From Eledone cirrhosa (lineage: Eukaryota), in contig OZ024755.1 of NCBI GenBank assembly GCA_964016885.1, forward strand, positions 18,724,001 to 18,788,000: a stretch of DNA of 64,000 nucleotides, in the 5' to 3' direction. The first letter of the stretch is position 1. Each line of letters starts with the position of its first letter. The notes below the pieces were generated by a model. That model saw nothing but the letters and a program-made list of their open reading frames with translations, did no database searches and was not told where the DNA came from. Both the position numbers and the translations under genes were made by a program. Positions 1,979 to 64,000 of this stretch are shown in pieces.

Positions 1979-2015
<37 letters not shown>

Positions 2016-2017
<2 letters not shown>

Positions 2018-2147
2018 CCTGGGTTCAATCGGGGGTAACCACAGTAAGTAAGGTACTCAATACACAGAGTATATACAAAATTTAATATAGAAATGGCTTC
2101 TACAGGACTAGAACTGTTTCATTCGAAGGAAATCACCAGGAAAGCCC
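2016..2147 (-). mobile_element. H2-bearing repeat (Penelope-like pLTR/retrozyme fragment); also at 10691-10806 (+) and 61735-62316
   Basis: Shared GGTAACCACAGTAAGTAAGGTACTCAATAC...TACAGGACTAGAACTGTTTCATTC sequence, flanked by (TG)n/(TA)n. Confidence 0.55.
2095..2146 (-). ncRNA. Hammerhead motif, family H2, core variant CUGGUGA
   Basis: Minus strand GGCTTTC-CTGGTGA-TTTCCTTCGAAT-GAAA-CAGTTCTAGTCCTG-TA-GAAGCC; stem I sequence differs from the 62250 copy but still pairs. Confidence 0.55.
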
Positions 2148-2187: not shown

Positions 2188-2480
2188 CAATATATTAATA
2201 AATGGAAACTATATTTATAAAACCATATTTATTTTATTATACATATTTCAAGGCAAATTATGGTGTCTTTTTTTCCGGGTATGTCAATATTTATTTATAA
2301 AACAAATCTGTATTTTATCTGATGAAAGCGCACCATAATTTGCCTTGGTTGCCCTTGAAATATGTATAATAAAATAAATATGGTTTTATAAATATAGTTT
2401 CCATTTATTAATATATTGTGTATTTACTCCATTAAATTGTTGAGTGCTTTATATCAGTTATAAAAAATTTTAAATTAAAT
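2188..2480 (+). mobile_element. H1-bearing repeat with partial inverted duplication; also at 51423-51603 (+) and 52385-52642 (-)
   Basis: 2188-2265 is an inverted copy of 2331-2418; all three copies abut (TA)n. Confidence 0.55.
2311..2376 (+). ncRNA. Hammerhead ribozyme motif, family H1 (minimal type I)
   Basis: TATTTTAT-CTGATGA-AAGCGCACC..GGTTGCCCTT-GAAA-TATGTA-TA-ATAAAATA: 8-bp stem I, intact core, stem II, short near-palindromic stem III, AUA cleavage triplet. Confidence 0.75.
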
Positions 2481-4683: not shown

Positions 4684-5028
4684 GGAGGCACATGGCTTAG
4701 TGGTTAGAGCATTGGCCTTGCAATCGAAAGGTTGTGAGTTCAATTCTCAGACTGAGTGATGTGTTATTTCCTTGAGCAAGACACTTTATTTCACATTGCT
4801 CCAGTTTACTCAGCTGTAGAAATGAGATGATAGGGACTGGGGTCCCTATCATTCCACTGCAAAGTGGTCGTGGAGGTACCACGGCAAAAAAGCACCCAGC
4901 ACTCACTGTAAATGAGGTTGGTGTTAGGAAGGGCATCCAGCTGTAGAAATCAAGCCAGAATCAGTTCCCATCCCACCCTTGCAAGCAGGGAAAAAGCGGA
5001 CATAAAATGAAATGAAAATGAATGATGA
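4684..5028 (+). mobile_element. SINE family B, full length; partial copies at 9697-9784 (+), 11300-11466 (-), 17838-17952 (-), 54172-54340 (+)
   Basis: Near-identical reverse complement of 2499-2839, inserted in (TA)n. Confidence 0.8.
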
Positions 5029-9606: not shown

Positions 9607-10851
9607 TGTATGTATAGTATATTTGGCAATATACTATACATACATTCATGTATACATCGCTATTTCAGAGCACCAATATTAATACCATATATATATGGAG
9701 GCTCATGGCTTAGTGGTTAGAGCATTGGCCTTGCAATCGAAAGGTTGTGAGTTCAATTCTCAGACCGGGTGATGTGTTGTTTCCCTTTTTCTCTCTCTCT
9801 TTCTCGCTAGTGACGTATTTAACAACACCAATAACAACACCAATAGCAACACCAATAGCAACACCAATAGCAACACCAATAGCAACACCAATAACAACAC
9901 CAATAACAACACCAATAACAACACCAATAACACAAGCCATGTATAACTTCACAAAGATGAATAAAAAATAAGTGAAATAACCTCTAACATATAAAACAGT
10001 TATATATGAAAGAGAGAATTGAGAGAAAGAGGAAGTAGAGAAAGAGAGAGAGTGATTGTAGTGAGATAGAGACAGAGAGAGTGTGGTTTAATGGAGTGAG
10101 AGAGTGGCAAACGAGACAAACGGAGAGAGAGTGGCAAGAAAGAGAGAGACAGAGAGAGTGTGGTGAGACAGAGACTGGCGAGAGAGAGAGAGAGTGGTGA
10201 GAGACAGAGAGAGAGTGGTGAGACAGACAGGGAGAGAGTGGTGAGAGAAAGAGAGACAGAGAGAGAGTGGTGAGACAGAGACAGACAGAGAGAGAGTGGT
10301 GAGACAGAGACAGACAGAGAGAGAGTGGTGAGACAGAGACTGGCGACAGAGAGAGAGAGAGAGAGAGAGAGTGGTGAGGGAGAGAGAGAGAGCAAAAGTG
10401 AGTGACGAGAGAGACAAGGAGAAAGAACATTTCAAAGAAAACTCAACTGACATATATAGATATCTATTAAAAATAAAACCATCTCAAGAAAGAATGTTGT
10501 CACACAAAGCAACAGAATATTGACAAACCAAAAAATAAGGCAAAATCAAAATGTCAATAGTTATAAAATCATTAAAGGAGAACATATGATGGAATTGTTA
10601 CCACCTGGATTAGAAAACAGCTTGCAAACTTAGTTCACTAGCTGCTTATAATTACAGTTATGAAAGATTTGTGTGTGTGTGTGTATATACCTTCAAATGA
10701 AACAGTTCTACCCCTGTAGAAGCCATTTCTATATTAAATCTTGTATATACTCTACTTTGTATTGAGTACCTTACTTACTGTGGTTACCCCCGATTGAACC
10801 TAGGATGGATATGTGTGTGTGTGTGTGTGTGAATATATTTGTACATATTCA

Positions 10852-11300: not shown

Positions 11301-11787
11301 AGTGGAATGATAGGGACCCCAGTCCCTATCATCTCATTTCTACAGCTGAGTAAACTGGAGCAATGTGAAATAAAGTGTCTTGCTCAAGGAAACAACACAT
11401 CACCCGGTCTGAGAATTGAACTCACAATCTTTCGATTGCAAGCCCAATGCTCTAACCACTAAGCCATAGAGAGAGAGAGAAAGAGAGAGAGAGAAAGGGA
11501 AATCTGTATGAGCAAAACATGGTCACCTAGCCTGAACCTGTCTCATAACATAACAACTCATCTTTTACCCATGCAAGCATGGAAAATAGACGTTAAGCTG
11601 TGATGAAGATGGTCATATGTATGTATCTAATATATATATATGTGTGTGTGTGTGTGAGTAATGGGTTTGAGTAATGGGTTTGTATTTTTAATAATACAAA
11701 CCTAATTATATCACTGAGTGACAGAAGAAACTACTGAGGCTGAGTCAATTCTCTTCAACTAGCTTTTTATACCTATATATATATATA

Positions 11788-25500: not shown

Positions 25501-26774
25501 CACACAAATATACAGAGAAAACAAACTATATGGGTTTAATACAGGAAGTGTTTATAACGGATGTAACTAGAGATTGGTTATTAAGGGAACCAATGATTTC
25601 TTTGGGGTCCCTATGACTAACTAGATTTAAGAGTTTTATTGTTACTATCACTGTAATGAAGAAATATAAAAATCATCATCATCTTCATCATCGTTTAACA
25701 TCATTTTCTATGCTTAAAGTAAAATAAATATCAAGACCCAATTTTTCTTCAATCCCTTTTTTTCATTTTCTCCAGAAATAACTACATCCTCATCACTCTG
25801 CCCATTCCACATGCCCTACCCTGGTTATTTATGATAATTATTTAAAAACTATCCCCCATCCTCCCACCAAACGAGGTCAATTTTAAGAAGGAATATACAG
25901 CTGAGGCAGTGGTGGTGGTGATACTAATGATGGTGGTGATGATGATGCACAAGACTAACAATTTGAAGGGAAGAGGAAAGACAATTAAATCAACCCCAGT
26001 GTGTTACTGGTACTTTATTTTATCGAGCCTGCAATGATGAAAGGCAAAGCTAACCTCTGTGGTATTTGAACTCAGAATGTGAAGGGCCGTCACTCTATGC
26101 CACAAAGTATGTTGTCTGACGCTCTACTGATAAGATTTAAGCACCTTTCTAATAATGTTGAATCTTTGTGAAAATTTGCATTATTAGACTTTAATGTTTT
26201 ATGTCATGCAGTCATAGTCACTGTTTTATACTTTTCAAGAATGGCTTGCCAATGTGGTCTCATGTGGTACAGGATGTTAGGAGGTAATAAGTCACTGAAA
26301 ATTTTATCTTTAAAAAATGTGTTGTTAATGTGTAAAGTGTGAGCAACTTTGAGTTAGAAGCTCCTTTCGCTGGCTTGTGGGAATAGAGAGAGAGAAGAAG
26401 AAGCTAAACCTCACTTCAATTTACCTTTCCAAATACAGGTAATGCATTTCTAAGGTATCCTAACCAACAAACAAGGTCCCTGAACTGTCTAACTACTAGC
26501 ATATTCTGTTTCACTTTCGCATAATTAATTGCAGCAGTTTTACTGCTTCCCCTTTCAATTAATAGCCCCAGTAAATGAAAAAGCATTTGCTTTCAATAAC
26601 AAATAACAGAGATTTTGAATGTTATATGAGAAATGTTATATGTTTCAATGTTATATGAGAAAGAATATTTTATTTCTGTTTCTGGTCCTGAAAATTTTTA
26701 AACAGAATAAATAGGCTGCACTTAAAAGAAGTTTGCTACCAAATGTATGATACCGTTGGTGTTCAGCTCTGATG

Positions 26775-27342
26775 AAATAAATCTCAGATCAGCCGTGATT
26801 AAATAAACCTCAGATCAGTCCTGATTACAAAAACCTCAGGTCAGCCATGATTACAAAAACATCAGGTCAGCCATGATTACAAAAACCTCAGGTCAGCCAT
26901 GATTACATAAACCTCAGGTCAGCCATGATTACATAAACCTCAAGCAAGCCCTGATTAAATAAACCTCAGGTCAGCCCTGATTAAATAAACCTCAGGTCAG
27001 CCCTGATTAAATAAACCTCAGGTCAGCCCTGATTAAATAAACCTCAGGTCAGCCCTGATTAAATAAACCTCAGGTCAGTCCTGATTACATAAACCTCAGA
27101 TCAGTCCTGATTACATAAACCTCAGATCAGTCCTGATTACATAAACCTCAGATCAGCCCTGATTACATAAACCTCAGATCAGTCCTGATTACATAAACCT
27201 CAGATCAGTCCTGATTACATAAACCTCAGATCAGCCCTGATTACATAAACCTCAGATCAGCCCTGATTACATAAACCTCAGGTCAGTCCGGATTAAATAA
27301 ACCTCAGGTCAGCTCTAATTAAATAAATCTCTGGCCAGCCTT
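26775..27342. repeat. 26-bp minisatellite, about 21 copies
   Basis: TTAAATAAACCTCAGGTCAGCCCTGA variants. Confidence 0.9.
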
Positions 27343-29310
27343 AATTAGTCTTATTTATTATTGTACATATCGATGGTTTAAAAAGTTTGAGTATCCTTGG
27401 TATAGTGACTACCACATTGACTCAAGATTCCTTTAATAGAAAATTAATGATCCCTATTTAGATATTTACAGTAATATACACAAACACAGATATGCTAGGC
27501 TTCCACAGCTCCTGTTTATCAAATTTCAAACGCAAGACATATATCAACCGAAGACTATGGTAGAAAGCACCCAAGTGCTACATAGTGAGATCAAGGCCAG
27601 AACCACATGGTTGTAAAACAAACTTCTTAACTATTAAGTCATGTCTATACCACATGTTTAAATATCTTGAATTAGAGACACGAGTGTGTTAAACATTTGT
27701 TTAAGTGACTGTAAATGACTATGCTACCCATTCACATAAAATAAAATATTTTCACAATTGTTTTCTGCTGTAGTATTTCATTTTCATAATAACATAACAC
27801 AAGTATAATACTATTATCTGTAACAAGTTTTTCAGACCAACTGAGTGTAGAAAGATAAGAGATAGGGCATGGTAGTTAGAGAATACTGAAAAACCATATT
27901 CACATTATAAGATCTTTTGGGAGATGTCTAGTAGAGACATTCAATAAATTATATAAATGTTGTAAATCTCCAATTGTGTATAGACAAGAGCACCAATGTA
28001 TTAAGCATGTATTTATTTATGTGTTTTATTATCTATAAAACCAGTAATTAACTTTTGTATTCTTATTCCTTATTCTAGATATGTATTTATACTAAAAGAA
28101 ATAGTATGCACACACATGCACACATGCAGAAACACTGACAAGACAAATCTATTAATGGTTTGCTTTTATGCACAGTGGCAAATCTATGTCGTGCTTATTT
28201 GTGAAAGGCTGACAAGTTGAAAAGTTGAACATATGCTATTTAAATAGCAGTATAGCTGTCTAGAAAAGTATTTAAATAAAGTTTATGTATTTTATGTAGA
28301 CAAAAGTATGGAACATATTAAATTAAAAACAGTTTTATCAACCCTTTCACTTTAGTTATTATATTTCCAATGAAAGATGTTGCTCCTTATTGTCAAATAG
28401 AGTTTCAATGTTAAATAAAAGGTGGAGCTTATCCCTCGCCAAGTTAGAGCCTCAAATAGAAGGATTAAGCTGAGAAGAACAAGTTAATGAAACAATTATT
28501 CAGTACGTTGTCATAGTAATTCTTCATACAGCACTAGATTAACCATTAAGTAAGATAAGAATATACTTTTCACCTTAGTTAAAAGAGGGGACCAATAGAC
28601 TATGCTGTCAGTACAGTATATTGGAGTTTGTTCCATATACGGTGCATAAAAGTATTATAGGCTTTTCACTTCTTAGGGGCTTCTAAAGTTTTTCATCTGG
28701 CTCTGTATTCATGGATAAGGAAACTAAGTTATTAAAGGTAAAGAGACCTAGGGGTAGACCATGAGCAAAATGGTTGGATAACACCCATGAGCTCAGCTGG
28801 TCTCACTTGGGGATCCAGCCAGATAAACTTGAGTCAGTTGCTTCAGACAGGACTCACTGGAAGGCATACTTGATGAATAAGTGGTCAAAGAAAAAGAGAT
28901 ATATGACCAAGTTAATATTTCACTGACGTTATGATTCAGCTAGCTATGGCATACTATGGCAGTAATGTAAATAAATATCTATGAAAATCTAGTGTGAGAG
29001 AAAGTAGTGTTAAGAAGACTCCCAATTTACTGCATGGAATAGAAAAACAACATAACAACATAATAATGTTGTTGTCATTGTTGTTCAGATCAAAGTCAGT
29101 TCTGACAGAACAGACAGACAAATGATCAAAGGAATTCCAGACAAGGTCATCCTGTCTTTTTGTATATGTAAAACTATATTGGAATAGAAGAAGACTTGAG
29201 CCAAGGTAAACCAAGTAATCAAATAGAGGCTCTTTCTTCAACTTGAACAGCAGAATACAGGCTGTTTCAAAAAATTAAATATTATTTGAGATGTAAATAT
29301 CCCAGAATCT

Positions 29311-32065: not shown

Positions 32066-32244
32066 TTAATATTAATATTGACTATTTAAGATCTTAATCT
32101 TAGCAAAGGTGTACTTTAGAGAAGAGATAAAGCTAAAATTATACAAATAAACACTGAAGCATAGCAAAGGGGTTGCAAGGAGGAGCAATCATCCCTGCGC
32201 ACATGTATAAAGGGGTACAAAATTTCCTCCAACACAGTGGAGTA

Positions 32245-34725
32245 CTAATAGTTTGACCTGTTGTTTCTGAGATGAGAGATATGGCGAAGCCAGGTGTCCA
32301 CTCTGTCGCTCTAATAGTTGACCTGTTGTCTCTGAGATGAGAGATATGGCCAAGCCAGGTGTCCACTCTGTCATTCTAATAGTTGACCTGTTGTCTCTGA
32401 GATGAGAGATATGGCCAAGCCAGGTGTCCACTCTGTCGCTCTAATAGTTGACCTGCTGTCTCTGAGATGAGAGATATGGTGAAGCCAGGTATCCACTCTG
32501 TCACTCTAATAGTTGACCTGTTGTTTCTGAGATGAGAGATATGGCCAAGCCAGGTGTCCACTCTGTCGCTCTAATAGTTGACCTGCTGTCTCTGAGATGA
32601 GAGATATGGCGAAGCCAGGTGTCCACTCTGTCGCTCTAATAGTTGACCTGTTGTCTCTGAGATGAGAGATATGGCCAAGCCAGGTGTCCACTCTGTCGCT
32701 CTAATAGTTGACCTGTTGTTTCTGAGATGAGAGATATGGCGAAGCCAGGTGTCCACTCTGTCGCTCTAATAGTTGACCTGTTGTTTCTGAGATGAGAGAT
32801 ATGGCCAAGCCAGGTGTCCACTCTGTCGCTCTAATAGTTGACCTGTTGTTTCTGAGATGAGAGATATGGCCAAGCCAGGTGTCCACTCTGTCGCTCTAAT
32901 AGTTGACCTGTTGTTTCTGAGATGAGAGATATGGCCAAGCCAGGTGTCCACTCTGTCGCTCTAATAGTTCACCTGTTGTTTCTGAGATGAGAGATATGGT
33001 GAAGCCAGGTGTCCACTCTGTCGCTCTAATAGTTCACCTGTTGTTTCTGAGATGAGAGATATGGCCAAGCCAGGTGTCCACTCTGTCGCTCTAATAGTTG
33101 ACCTGCTGTCTCTGAGATGAGAGATATGGCCAAGCCAGGTGTCCACTCTGTCGCTCTAATAGTTGACCTGTTGTTTCTGAGATGAGAGATATGGCGAAGC
33201 CAGGTGTCCACTCTGTCGCTCTAATAGTTGACCTGTTGTTTCTGAGATGAGAGATATGGCAAAGCCAGGTGTCCACTCTGTCGCTCTAATAGTTGACCTG
33301 TTGTTTCTGAGATGAGAGATATGGCCAAGCCAGGTGTCCACTCTGTCGCTCTAATAGTTGACCTGTTGTTTCTGAGATGAGAGATATGGCCAAGCCAGGT
33401 GTCCACTCTGTCGCTCTAATAGTTCACCTGTTGTTTCTGAGATGAGAGATATGGTGAAGCCAGGTGTCCACTCTGTCGCTCTAATAGTTCACCTGTTGTT
33501 TCTGAGATGAGAGATATGGCCAAGCCAGGTGTCCACTCTGTCGCTCTAATAGTTGACCTGCTGTCTCTGAGATGAGAGATATGGCCAAGCCAGGTGTCCA
33601 CTCTGTCGCTCTAATAGTTGACCTGTTGTTTCTGAGATGAGAGATATGGCGAAGCCAGGTGTCCACTCTGTCGCTCTAATAGTTGACCTGTTGTTTCTGA
33701 GATGAGAGATATGGCAAAGCCAGGTGTCCACTCTGTCGCTCTAATAGTTGACCTGTTGTTTCTGAGATGAGAGATATGGCCAAGCCAGGTGTCCACTCTG
33801 TCGCTCTAATAGTTGACCTGTTGTTTCTGAGATGAGAGATATGGCCAAGCCAGGTGTCCACTCTGTCGCTCTAATAGTTGACCTGCTGTCTCTGAGATGA
33901 GAGATATGGCCAAGCCAGGTGTCCACTCTGTCGCTCTAATAGTTGACCTGTTGTTTCTGAGATGAGAGATATGGCGAAGCCAGGTGTCCACTCTGTCGCT
34001 CTAATAGTTGACCTGTTGTTTCTGAGATGAGAGATATGGCAAAGCCAGGTGTCCACTCTGTCGCTCTAATAGTTGACCTGTTGTTTCTGAGATGAGAGAT
34101 ATGGCGAAGCCAGGTGTCCACTCTGTCGCTCTAATAGTTGACCTGTTGTTTCTGAGATGAGAGATATGGCGAAGCCAGGTGTCCACTCTGTCGCTCTAAT
34201 AGTTGACCTGTTGTTTCTGAGATGAGAGATATGGCGAAGCCAGGTGTCCACTCTGTCGCTCTAATAGTTGACCTGTTGTTTCTGAGATGAGAGATATGGT
34301 GAAGCCAGGTGTCCACTCTGTCGCTCTAATAGTTCACCTGTTGTTTCTGAGATGAGAGATATGGCCAAGCCAGGTGTCCACTCTGTCGCTCTAATAGTTG
34401 ACCTGCTGTCTGAGCTGTGGTCTGACCAGGCCAGGTGTCCACTGTGTCACTCTAATAGACCACCTGCTGTCTCTGAGATGAGAGACATCACCAGGCCAGG
34501 TGTCCACTGTGTCACTCTAATAGACCACCTGCTGTCTCTGAGATGAGAGACATCACCAGGCCAGGTGTCCACTCTGTCACTCTAATAGTCCACCTGAGGA
34601 GAGATGTGGCCAGGCCAGGTGTCCACTCTGTCACTCTAATAGTCCACCTGAGGAGAGATGTGGCCAGGTCAGGTGTCCACTCTGTCACTCTAATAGTCCA
34701 CCTGAGGGGAGATGTGGCCAGGCCA
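32245..34725. repeat. 65-bp minisatellite (about 33 copies plus degenerate 54-bp units) derived from an RTE ORF
   Basis: CTAATAGTTGACCTGTTGTTTCTGAGATGAGAGATATGGCCAAGCCAGGTGTCCACTCTGTCGCT. Confidence 0.95.
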
Positions 34726-61312: not shown

Positions 61313-61813
61313 GGTAGCTCATTATACAATGTTGTAATTAGGCAGAAACACTCAATATCATGGGAGCCACAAGATTATTTTGAAAGAGTTAAATTCAAGC
61401 CAGAGACTGAGTTTAAATGATCCCCCACCTCTCAATTCTCTCTTTCCCTCATTGTCTTTCTTCAATATTATTGTTGTCAGTCAACCAACAATGAAACAGT
61501 TACTTAAATCAAGTTTGTACTGTTCTATAAAGCATAAGATGTTGAGAGAGAGAGAGGGGGGGGGTGAACAGGGCAGGCTGTATAAATAGAAAACATATGG
61601 GAAAAAGGACTTTTCACAAGAACAATTCTAGTTTTTACTATTTATTTTAGTTTGCAAGTTTCCCTTTATTTTGACAACTATAATTCAACTATTAAAGAAA
61701 AAACTATATATATATATATATATATATATACGTTATTCCGGGTTGAATCGGAGGTAACCACAGTAAGTAAGGTACTCAATACATAGCAGAGTATAACAGT
61801 TTTAATATAGATG

Positions 61814-61864
61814 AGATTCTACAGGACTAGAACTGTTTCATTCATTAGAAATCATCAGGAATCT
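61814..61864 (-). ncRNA. Hammerhead ribozyme motif, family H2 (inverted copy)
   Basis: Reverse complement of 62250-62300, inside a 130-bp inverted repeat arm. Confidence 0.65.
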
Positions 61865-62249
61865 GGGTATCAAAAAATAAATATGGTATTTATAGGTCTC
61901 TACAAGTGGTAGGAGAGGGTGGGGAGTGGGATGGGTGCAGGTCATTGGTTGATAGAGAAGGGAATTCATTAAAAGCTAATTCTACATAGCTATAGTTAAT
62001 TTATATTTATTTATGTTTTTAGAGTAACAAAGGCAGACAGAATTCTATAAACAGGTTCCGGATGGCATACCATTCCTTGTCAATAAGTTTCTCTTAAGCT
62101 AGCAGATGTCTATAAAATCAGTGGGGGGTCATTCATGCTCGATAGAATTAAAGAAAAGGGAGATTCTTTAATAGCTAAAGTCATTAACTCCCCACCCTCT
62201 CCTACCACTTGTAGAGACCTATAAATACCATATTTATTTTTTGATACCC

Positions 62250-62300
62250 AGATTCCTGATGATTTCTAATGAATGAAACAGTTCTAGTCCTGTAGAATCT
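62250..62300 (+). ncRNA. Hammerhead ribozyme motif, family H2
   Basis: AGATTC-CTGATGA-TTTCTAATGAAT-GAAA-CAG-TTCTAGTC-CTG-TA-GAATCT: 6-bp stem I, GUA triplet; stem II closed by U-U rather than G-C. Confidence 0.65.
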
Positions 62301-64000
62301 CATCTATATTAAAACTATATATATATATATATATATATATTGTCTGGCGACACTGTGAGTGCATAGGTGAAACTCCAGAATAACAAGACTCACTATTTAG
62401 CCACAAGAAATGAATATTTATATATATATAGTTTGCTAAATTTTCACCTTAAGATAATAAATAATAAATTATTTCCACACCAGTTCTAATACTTAAATCA
62501 AATGTCAGGTTTTAATGTTAAATGTTTTTCTGTTCCCTATTAAACAACCTTTTTATAAGACACATTATGGTCAGAGTTTTAACCCTTTAGCATTTAAACC
62601 AGCCACATTCGGCCAGAATTCTCTCACCTCTTTCTGTTCAAACTGGCTGTAACTGGCCACTCATACTGACATTAAGGTATTGTTCTTAAAATAAATAGTA
62701 TCAAAATCTCATAGATTCGATATTATGTGAGATAATTAGTGAAATAAAGAGTTTACTGTGAAAATACAATAGTATATACAGGGTTAAACTACAATATCAA
62801 TTGATGGCTAATAAAATACTGACAGCTACTGATATCTTTATTTTTATTGGTATTTGACATTGGACTGTGGTCATGCCAGGGCTGCTGTTATAAGGCCATT
62901 TTCCCTGCTAAAGCAGGAATTAGCCTTATGGAGTCCCAGGATAGGCTTCACCCGCATTATGGAATCCTTTTTCTGGTAAATTTTACAGATGGGTGCCCTT
63001 CCTGGCACCAACTGCATCAGTTGCCATTTCCAACACACAGGGATATGTTTTATTAATTCTGCACTAGATACATACAGTAAAGGGATAAAATGGAAGAGTG
63101 ACTTTTTTGAAAATATAAACTCTATTTTATTATATACTACCGAGGTTAGCTTTACATTTCATCCTTACGAGCTCAATAAAATAAAGTACCAGTAACCTAC
63201 TGGAGTCGATTTAATCCACTTTCCCTTCCATCAAAATTGTTGGCCTTGTGTCTAAATCAGAAACCATTACTTTTTTCTTTTAGTTTTCTCTTAACTATAA
63301 CCTTCACTTCTTTAATTTTTATGTCAGCCCTTCAAGTTGAGGTTGAGGGTTGAGGGTTGGCATATAAATTAAAATAGTAGGGAGGGTTCTAGTTAAACTA
63401 ACCCCACTTTCTCCTAATCTAATGTTTATATTTAAAATAATAAAAAAAAAAAAAAAAAAAAAAAGAGAGATTTCCAACACAATAAGCAGATATGATGTAT
63501 GTATTGCATTGACTGACAGAAGGCTTTCATGGCGGAGGGTGGTGGGGTAGGGGTGGAAAGTGGGGCAAAGGAAACAGTACCCCCCCCCCCCCCCCACACC
63601 TGCCCTGTCACCACATGAAAACAGGAATCTAACTGTATTGCTATTGTAACTGTAAAAATGGGATAAATGCTTCACCAGTCAGACCTTGTTGTTTTTGTTG
63701 TTTAGCTTCTGGTAAGCATGGATCAAGCAGGCCTATGATAAAAAAAGCACTCCAACCAGGACCACACTATAGAGTATTTCTCCTCCTCAGGACTAGATTA
63801 TCTAATATGTCAGTTTATAGGACAAGCAGGTTGTGGTTTAACCCTTTAGCATTTAAACCGGCCATATCCAGCCTGAATTCTCTCATCTCTTTCCGTTCAA
63901 ACCGGCTGTAACTGGCCACTCATACTGATGTTAAGGTATTGTTCTCAAAATAAATATCAAAATCTCATAGATTCGATGTTATGTGACAATAGTATATATA

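What the first reader, a model, noticed from the sequence alone, without database searches (positions are those of the whole stretch)
61798..62316. 130-bp inverted repeats each carrying hammerhead H2 behind a TATA-like box
Seen: arms 61798-61927 and 62187-62316 look like exact reverse complements around a 260-bp spacer, and the unit lies between (TA)n tracts. Each arm has CTATAAATA about 30 nt upstream of a hammerhead core with a GUA triplet. The related copy at 2095-2146 swaps stem I from AGATTC/GAATCT to GGCTTTC/GAAGCC and still pairs. A U-U pair closes stem II in both. Established: Penelope-like insertions often have inverted pseudo-LTRs. Inference: a young Penelope-like or retrozyme insertion with a non-canonical hammerhead variant.
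Basis: partly seen in the sequence, partly recalled or inferred. Interest (0 to 1): 0.75.

Follow-up and report, generated by a model that had tools for sequence, protein, structure and literature searches.

The report
Penelope retroelement stub with twin hammerheads
This is a short head-to-head fragment of a young Penelope-like jumping gene sitting in a TA repeat, with two mirror-image hammerhead ribozyme motifs of a form already listed for its group; the ends of sister copies suggest its RNA likely starts exactly at the ribozyme and is likely copied into DNA uncut.

Summary
The arms are real (130/130 complementary, 259 nt apart), each with a TATA box and an intact type I hammerhead motif. 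They are the 3' end of a young Hydra-clade Penelope-like retrotransposon. Sister copies are about 99% identical and lead into a 713-aa ORF whose model matches telomerase RTs best and which carries every Hydra motif. The spacer is 3' UTR. U-U at stem II is not new: it is in 14 of 25 published Hydra families and in 26,985 motifs here. Two patterns add something. All 23 of 23 nearby head-to-head pairs have one tailed and one tail-less arm. Short copies start at TATA+30, the first base of stem I: 59 TA junctions there, against 10 at the cut site and 7 at a control. So insertion likely uses uncut RNA primed on both target strands. No RNA data tested this. The scan reached the same reading before on other DNA (e1-9549524). 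New member of a known kind.

The parts
61705..61730 (.). left (TA)13 target tract
   Evidence: sequence; 2-nt TA overlap with the element end
61731..61797 (-). 67-nt 'tail', present on this arm only; its end is the likely distal RT start
   Evidence: shared by sister copies; continues into the 5' UTR and ORF in tandem copy L036
61798..61927 (-). left arm: pLTR segment of the main (tailed) copy
   Evidence: 130/130 complementary to the right arm
61814..61864 (-). type I hammerhead motif, predicted cut after 61820
   Evidence: stem I covariation across subfamilies
61887..61894 (-). TATA box; Inr-like element 61860-61866, predicted +1 at 61864
   Evidence: 5' ends of sister copies
61928..62186 (-). 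spacer = end of the element's 3' UTR, non-coding
   Evidence: stops in all six frames; continues into about 2.3 kb of microsatellite-rich UTR and the ORF in other copies
62187..62187 (.). head-to-head junction, 1-nt overlap
62187..62316 (+). right arm: inverted, tail-less pLTR segment; its end is the likely proximal RT start
   Evidence: inverted arms of sister insertions end at the same place
62220..62227 (+). TATA box; Inr-like CCAGATT 62248-62254, predicted +1 at 62250
   Evidence: offset 30; TATA and its spacing kept across subfamilies
62250..62300 (+). type I hammerhead motif: stem I 62250-55/62295-300, core 62256-62, U-U plus 3-bp stem II 62263-74, stem III 62278-93 with 8-nt loop, predicted cut after 62294
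62316..62340 (.). right (TA)n target tract
   Evidence: sequence
2015..2147 (-). solo tailed copy of an older subfamily; starts at stem I with one extra G; core mutated (A6G)
10696..10806 (+). tailed fragment of the older subfamily, truncated inside stem II

Best explanation
This is a 5'-truncated, head-to-head insertion of a young Hydra-clade Penelope-like retrotransposon in a (TA)n tract, likely made when the element's endonuclease nicked both strands and its reverse transcriptase likely primed one cDNA from each nick on uncut RNA. Shown: family membership, the ORF, the two fixed 3' ends (with and without the 67-nt tail) and their strict pairing. Inferred: the two ends are two RT start sites; the two cDNAs (456+ and 130 nt, overlapping in template) were joined at their 3' ends. 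Also inferred: the TATA/Inr is a Pol II promoter whose RNA begins at the first base of hammerhead stem I. The ribozyme would cut 45 nt later, removing the cap from a leading pLTR and both RT starts from a trailing one, so cutting would limit transposition or yield unit-length or circular RNA. This copy has no ORF and would act at most as two outward-facing promoters.
For: Family: 1,242 candidates, 40 scored, 39 sister loci, nearly all 99-100% over query 1-456. ORF: 713 aa from ATG, 175 nt after C3 in tandem copy L036; most of the 63 best genomic matches are 95-100% identical and many have no stop. The AlphaFold model (pLDDT 83.8) has telomerase RTs as its top 8 PDB matches. Motifs RWR, DKT, CxCX5C, CxxC..E and N..CxH fit the Hydra definition. 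Tail rule: 23 of 23 head-to-head pairs within 600 nt in pattern-chosen loci have exactly one tailed arm. Solo tail-less copies between TA tracts exist (L112, L117, L153), so that end arises on its own. PAc protein cuts and extends both strands from two internal starts that bound the tail, and HHR cutting is not needed (PMC11167929). RNA start: of 49 young arms, 19 scored long and 30 short; 16 of the 30 end 5-6 nt before C3 and none end between -13 and the TATA box. TA junctions: 59 at TATA+30, 10 at the cut site, 7 at a control site. Stem I covaries across subfamilies: 8 cells changed on both sides, 0 of 500 shuffles as high.
Against: There is no RNA or cleavage evidence. The hammerhead fold is marginal (-5.3 against MFE -5.6; stem II pair probabilities 0.15-0.19), and Rfam misses it. 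Pfam gives only GIY-YIG E 0.069, below cut-off, and PDB sequence searches find no RT. Covariation is limited to 2 pairs of stem I (149 of 500 shuffles as high on that measure); stems II and III never vary and were partly fixed by my search pattern, and I chose the 18 rows. Arms of one pair are not independent, so the binomial p of 4e-13 overstates the case. None of 37 ORF-bearing copies ends exactly at -5/-6: 24 run past the TATA box, 2 end at -8/-12 and 11 end downstream of C3, so a second, longer-than-unit template must exist. The clustering at stem I could partly reflect annealing at the near-palindromic GATTC.
Confidence: 0.85

Rival explanations
1. Same element, but the inverted arm arises by fold-back or self-priming of one cDNA (or of an antisense template), resolved by a nick at the tail-less end.
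For: Proposed for rotifer Penelopes from junction palindromes (PMC3846280 passages). Many short pairs join at the near-palindromic stem I 5' strand with overlaps of 0-5 nt. The tail-less end lies in AT-rich sequence that resembles the target.
Against: Solo tail-less copies flanked by TA exist. Several junctions carry extra linker bases rather than a hairpin (L095, L107, L118). The window junction overlaps by 1 nt and skips 259 nt. PAc extends both strands in vitro.
Confidence: 0.2
2. The pile-up of 5' ends at stem I is an RT stop or annealing artefact of the hammerhead structure, and the TATA-like word is not a promoter.
For: The genome is AT-rich. D. virilis Penelope uses a TATA-less internal promoter (PMC2377424 passages). 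The 5' strand of stem I is nearly palindromic.
Against: Spacing is exactly 30 nt to an Inr-like CCA+1GATT (consensus recalled). The TATA word and its spacing persist while the sequence between diverges. The pile-up also holds for non-inverted TA junctions (59 vs 7).
Confidence: 0.25
3. A non-autonomous retrozyme, or a DNA-transposon (MITE) with terminal inverted repeats.
For: The window unit is short, non-coding and bounded by perfect inverted repeats in TA. Short copies vastly outnumber ORF copies.
Against: Arm and spacer lengths differ at every insertion. The arms are asymmetric (tail). The sequence is contiguous with an RT-endonuclease ORF. Retrozymes are tandem direct units.
Confidence: 0.02

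Closest known systems
Hydra clade of C-terminal EN+ Penelope-like elements (Craig et al. 2021, PMC8557442), including Hydra-1_Obim
   Same: RW(K/R), DKT, CxCX5C linker, CxxC/CxH around E and N, single ORF of about 700 aa, (TA)n target, type I HHR with U on both sides of stem II (14 of 25 families), ACAG/CTGT stem III arms in several families, inverted 5'-truncated copy and optional tail.
   Different: Unit is about 4.96 kb, with a 2.3-kb microsatellite-rich 3' UTR, against generally <3 kb. Loop III is 8 nt against 1-3 nt in all 25 listed families. Stem II is 3 bp. Tail is 67 nt against 30-40. The HHR differs from that listed for Hydra-1_Obim, so this is another family (by eye).
Poseidon_Ac (PAc) of the green anole (Frangieh et al. 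2024, PMC11167929)
   Same: Two fixed 3' ends bounding a tail; AT-rich target; HHR cut apparently not needed for insertion.
   Different: Different clade. In PAc the starts lie inside the ORF and the HHR overlaps the start codon; here HHR and both ends lie in the 5' UTR, upstream of the ATG. PAc was tested in vitro; this was read from genomic copies only.
Adineta vaga Pen2a (PMC3846280)
   Same: Inverted pLTR, tail on one arm, putative TATA plus Inr in the pLTR.
   Different: That promoter was proposed from sequence on a single copy; here the 5' ends of many copies fall at TATA+30, at the ribozyme's first base.
Natural U10.1-U11.1 hammerheads (Perreault et al. 2011, PMC3088659)
   Same: U-U opens stem II; weak stem II.
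   Different: This RNA has not been assayed.
L1 twin priming (recalled, no call)
   Same: Both target strands prime cDNA, giving a 5' inversion.
   Different: L1 copies two non-overlapping parts of one RNA; here the same 130 nt are copied twice from two fixed starts.

Membership tests
EN+ Penelope-like elements | Telomerase-like RT in a single ORF | tested here: met
   713-aa ORF; top 8 fold matches are TERTs; YRDD motif. Sequence searches alone found no RT.
EN+ Penelope-like elements | C-terminal GIY-YIG endonuclease | tested here: inconclusive
   YIGMT at 602 and Pfam GIY-YIG E 0.069, below cut-off; the Hydra EN is described as divergent.
EN+ Penelope-like elements | Partial tandems (pLTR), inverted 5'-truncated copy, optional tail | tested here: met
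   Tandem L036 and L040; 23 of 23 pairs with one tail; 24 of 37 ORF copies longer than unit.
Hydra clade | RWK-type motif, DKT, CxCX5C linker, CxxC and CxH flanking E and N | tested here: met
   RWR 38, DKT 116, CNCLNKETC 566, CDLC 666, CMH 694 against the definition.
Hydra clade | (TA)n insertion preference | tested here: met
   28 of 30 loci have (TA)n at the 3' end; the other 2 continue into a tandem unit.
Hydra clade | Monophyly with published Hydra RTs | not tested
   No tree with published Hydra proteins was built; resemblance judged by eye from supplement passages.
Hydra clade | Generally short (<3 kb); a tendency, not a diagnostic | tested here: not met
   Unit about 4.96 kb (core at 4866 and 9829 in L036); 2,317 nt from stop codon to next core.
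Type I hammerhead ribozyme | Core C3-A9, G12-A15.1, U16.1, H17 with three stems | tested here: met
   U-U at 10.1-11.1 is a reported natural state. No Rfam match.
Type I hammerhead ribozyme | Self-cleavage 3' of H17 | not testable with these tools
   Needs an in vitro assay or stranded RNA ends.
Non-LTR retrozyme | Tandem direct 150-400-nt HHR units with no ORF | tested here: not met
   Inverted arrangement, and sequence contiguous with an ORF.
DNA transposon / MITE | Fixed TIRs at both ends and fixed internal length | tested here: not met
   Arm and spacer lengths vary between insertions, and arms are asymmetric.

The most novel reading that the evidence does not exclude
In this family the promoter places the capped first nucleotide on the first base of hammerhead stem I, so the ribozyme is a built-in off switch or timer: cutting removes the cap from a leading pLTR and both RT starts from a trailing one. 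Only uncut RNAs are copied, two at a time from the two nicked strands of a TA tract, which would explain head-to-head pLTRs and the one-tail rule across Penelope-like elements. The 8-nt quasi-palindromic loop III (self-duplex -12.8 against hairpin -1.4 kcal/mol) would let the two RNAs held by an RT dimer cut each other.
Probability: 0.35. Interest if true: 0.65.

Novelty: new member of a known kind. Interest (0 to 1): 0.35.

Why it matters
The object itself is an expected footprint of a described clade. Its value is as a test system. What hammerheads do in Penelope-like elements, and how head-to-head insertions form, are stated as open in PMC8557442 and PMC11167929. This genome holds a young family with many uninterrupted ORFs and about 27,000 ribozyme-motif copies whose ends map a likely transcription start, two likely RT starts and the absence of a peak at the cut site. 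Each of these gives a base-precise prediction.

Tried and rejected
Rfam, whole window and the 651-nt region: no hammerhead. Free folding does not give the hammerhead. Six-frame translation of the spacer: stops in every frame. Pfam and PDB sequence searches of the ORF and of a 19-row alignment (19 of 120 listed hits plus query minus one: query and 18 homologues): nothing above cut-off. Expression: no RNA holder listed; 4 of the 6 runs were laid as contigs, which cannot show RNA ends, so neither call bears on expression. A subfamily with a restored pair at 10.1-11.1: none seen; 511 and 473 motifs differ at one side, 11 at both (the 473 include those 11), scattered over subfamilies, about the level of decay (only the first 100 rows were listed). 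An extra G at the 5' end as a cap trace: seen in L051, L057, L060, L061 and L062, but these were picked by likeness to a query that has it, so it is not used. Twin hairpins behind the two ends (lead from e1-8673755): a hairpin starts 4 nt behind one end and 7 nt behind the other, but they are unlike each other and weak (z +0.44, -1.72, -1.59). The inverted repeat at 60938-61098/62578-62738 around the element recurs elsewhere in the window and was judged unrelated. In one search the unit-length search returned nothing, and the first mapping line failed; neither result was used.

Full report
Observation. The two arms are exact reverse complements over 130 of 130 bases and extend in neither direction; 259 nt lie between them. 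Each carries TATAAATA, then AGAUUC-CUGAUGA-U UUC UAAU GAA U-GAA-ACAG UUCUAGUC CUGU-A-GAAUCU: a type I hammerhead layout with U10.1-U11.1 and H17 at 62294 and 61820. The left arm does not touch TA; a further 67 nt of element follow it. The copy at 2095-2146 pairs in stem I with a bulged U and has A6G in the core, whereas 13 of its 20 closest relatives fetched have the intact core. Rfam has no match, and the fold is marginal on its own.

Family. In the 3.0-Gb own genome (unnamed; likely a cephalopod from its repeats, my inference and untested), the 585-nt unit gave 1,242 candidates. Of 40 scored, 39 are sister loci and nearly all match query 1-456 at 99-100%. So spacer, left arm and tail are one continuous piece of the element, and the right arm is an inverted partial duplicate. 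Of the 30 loci fetched, 28 end in (TA)n and 2 continue into a tandem unit. In tandem copy L036 a 713-aa ORF starts 175 nt after C3. It is followed by 2,317 nt of microsatellite-rich sequence (GC 24%) up to the next core, giving a unit of about 4.96 kb. Most of the 63 best genomic matches to this protein are 95-100% identical and many have no stop, so the family is young.

Identity. The protein has at least 692 database relatives at E<=1e-20, almost all unnamed. Sequence searches of Pfam and PDB were uninformative. A model built on a 19-row alignment (pLDDT 83.8) matched telomerase RTs in its top 8 places. The motifs RWR, DKT, CxCX5C, CxxC..E and N..CxH are those that define the Hydra clade (Craig 2021, PMC8557442, section 11 read whole). 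That paper also describes the inverted 5'-truncated copy and the one-sided tail as typical (passages), and lists Hydra-1_Obim with a different hammerhead (supplement parts 1-2 and passages). No tree was built.

The U-U pair. It is reported as natural in Perreault 2011 (PMC3088659, section 8 and passages). By my count of Craig's File S2, 14 of 25 Hydra families have U on both sides of stem II. Here 26,985 motifs carry U-U (control 0); 511 and 473 differ at one side and 11 at both, while the tetraloop, N7 and stem I vary between subfamilies. Two unrelated hammerhead families in the fetched loci also have U-U. Stem I covaries: 8 cells changed on both sides, 0 of 500 shuffles as high, but only 2 pairs (149 of 500 as high), in 18 rows I chose and aligned without gaps. 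What does differ from the published table is the 8-nt loop III (1-3 nt there), which can close as a weak hairpin (-1.4 kcal/mol) or self-pair as a dimer (-12.8). Metazoan PLE hammerheads are described as weak and dimer-dependent (PMC4209133, parts 1-2 of 4).

How the inversion forms. In loci chosen only by the motif (L071-L153), all 23 of 23 head-to-head pairs within 600 nt have one tailed and one tail-less arm; longer pairs look the same, though those were selected with a tailed query. Both 3' ends face outward into TA, arm and spacer lengths vary, and solo tail-less copies exist. PAc protein nicks and extends both strands, starts at two internal sites that bound the tail, and does not need hammerhead cutting (PMC11167929, parts 1-2 of 4). 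I infer priming from both nicks at the two starts and joining of the two cDNAs, here with a 1-nt overlap at 62187. Fold-back or antisense self-priming (PMC3846280 passages) remains a rival.

Where the RNA starts. The first T of the TATA box is 30 nt before the A of stem I, which lies in CCAGATT, an Inr-like word (spacing and consensus recalled). TATA and its spacing persist across subfamilies. Of 49 young arms among the 100 motifs listed, 19 scored long and 30 short (one of the 30, L144, is by eye a long variant). Sixteen end at -5/-6 from C3, 4 at -4 or -7, 8 at 0 to -2 (mostly the partner arm of a pair), 1 at -12, and none between -13 and the TATA box. Genome-wide, direct TA junctions number 59 at this site, 10 at the predicted cut and 7 at a control site (the patterns differ slightly in overlap and breadth). 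So short copies look like run-off copies of uncut RNA beginning at stem I. Against a single template: of 37 ORF-bearing copies (from the 63, those reaching residue 1, less two already held), 24 extend past the TATA box, 2 end at -8/-12, 11 end downstream of C3 and none exactly at -5/-6. Longer-than-unit templates (read-through or circular) must therefore also be used; these are the copies that keep a promoter. D. virilis Penelope uses a TATA-less internal promoter (PMC2377424 passages); a TATA/Inr was proposed for rotifer Pen2a.

Literature gaps. A search for Penelope + hammerhead + TATA + transcription start gave 0 papers. Penelope-like + twin priming + inverted gave 2 listings whose titles and abstracts are off topic. 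Searches with octopus or cephalopod gave only Craig 2021 as relevant. The library lacks most subscription papers, so this is weak evidence of absence. The retrozyme preprint (part 1 of 5) and PMC7229834 (passages) define retrozymes as tandem units, which this is not.

Earlier notes. No sequence look-alike was indexed. A word search gave e1-9549524, the same reading on another genome, and e1-8673755, hairpins behind the two ends, which I could only partly support. My reading was fixed before I saw them.

Verdict. Real, and explained as a new family of a described clade; the U-U pair is not the surprise. The added value is base-precise, untested predictions about the promoter, the two RT starts and the role of the ribozyme. 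Interest 0.35.

Noticed in passing
window 2190-2420; also 51507(+) and 52570(-): A second hammerhead family: intact core at 2319(+), long stem II, palindromic stem III, with a degraded head-to-head inverse arm at about 2205-2290. Likely another Penelope-like family.
   Followed up: partly
L025 (4 units), L017, L003: 310-bp tandem units, each with a U-U type I hammerhead and a 6-nt palindromic stem III; looks like a non-LTR retrozyme.
   Followed up: partly
L036 7512-9828 and sister copies: The family's 3' UTR is about 2.3 kb of TA/TG microsatellite, that is, its own target; other elements, including Hydra-like ORFs, sit in or near it (L043, L038, L033, L046).
   Followed up: partly
L101-L153: At least eight further distinct type I hammerhead families turned up in about 300 kb of flanks, so this genome is very rich in them (one search lists them in L001-L070).
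   Followed up: no
genome-wide: Strand imbalance (376 forward vs 135 reverse) for motifs changed at 10.1 suggests one tandem array of a variant copy.
   Followed up: no
window 32123-34300 and 26659-27438: Tandem arrays with 65-bp and 26-bp periods.
   Followed up: no
window 4691-4754, 9706-9763, 11409-11466: Weak tRNA-model matches within repeated segments, probably tRNA-derived SINE heads.
   Followed up: no
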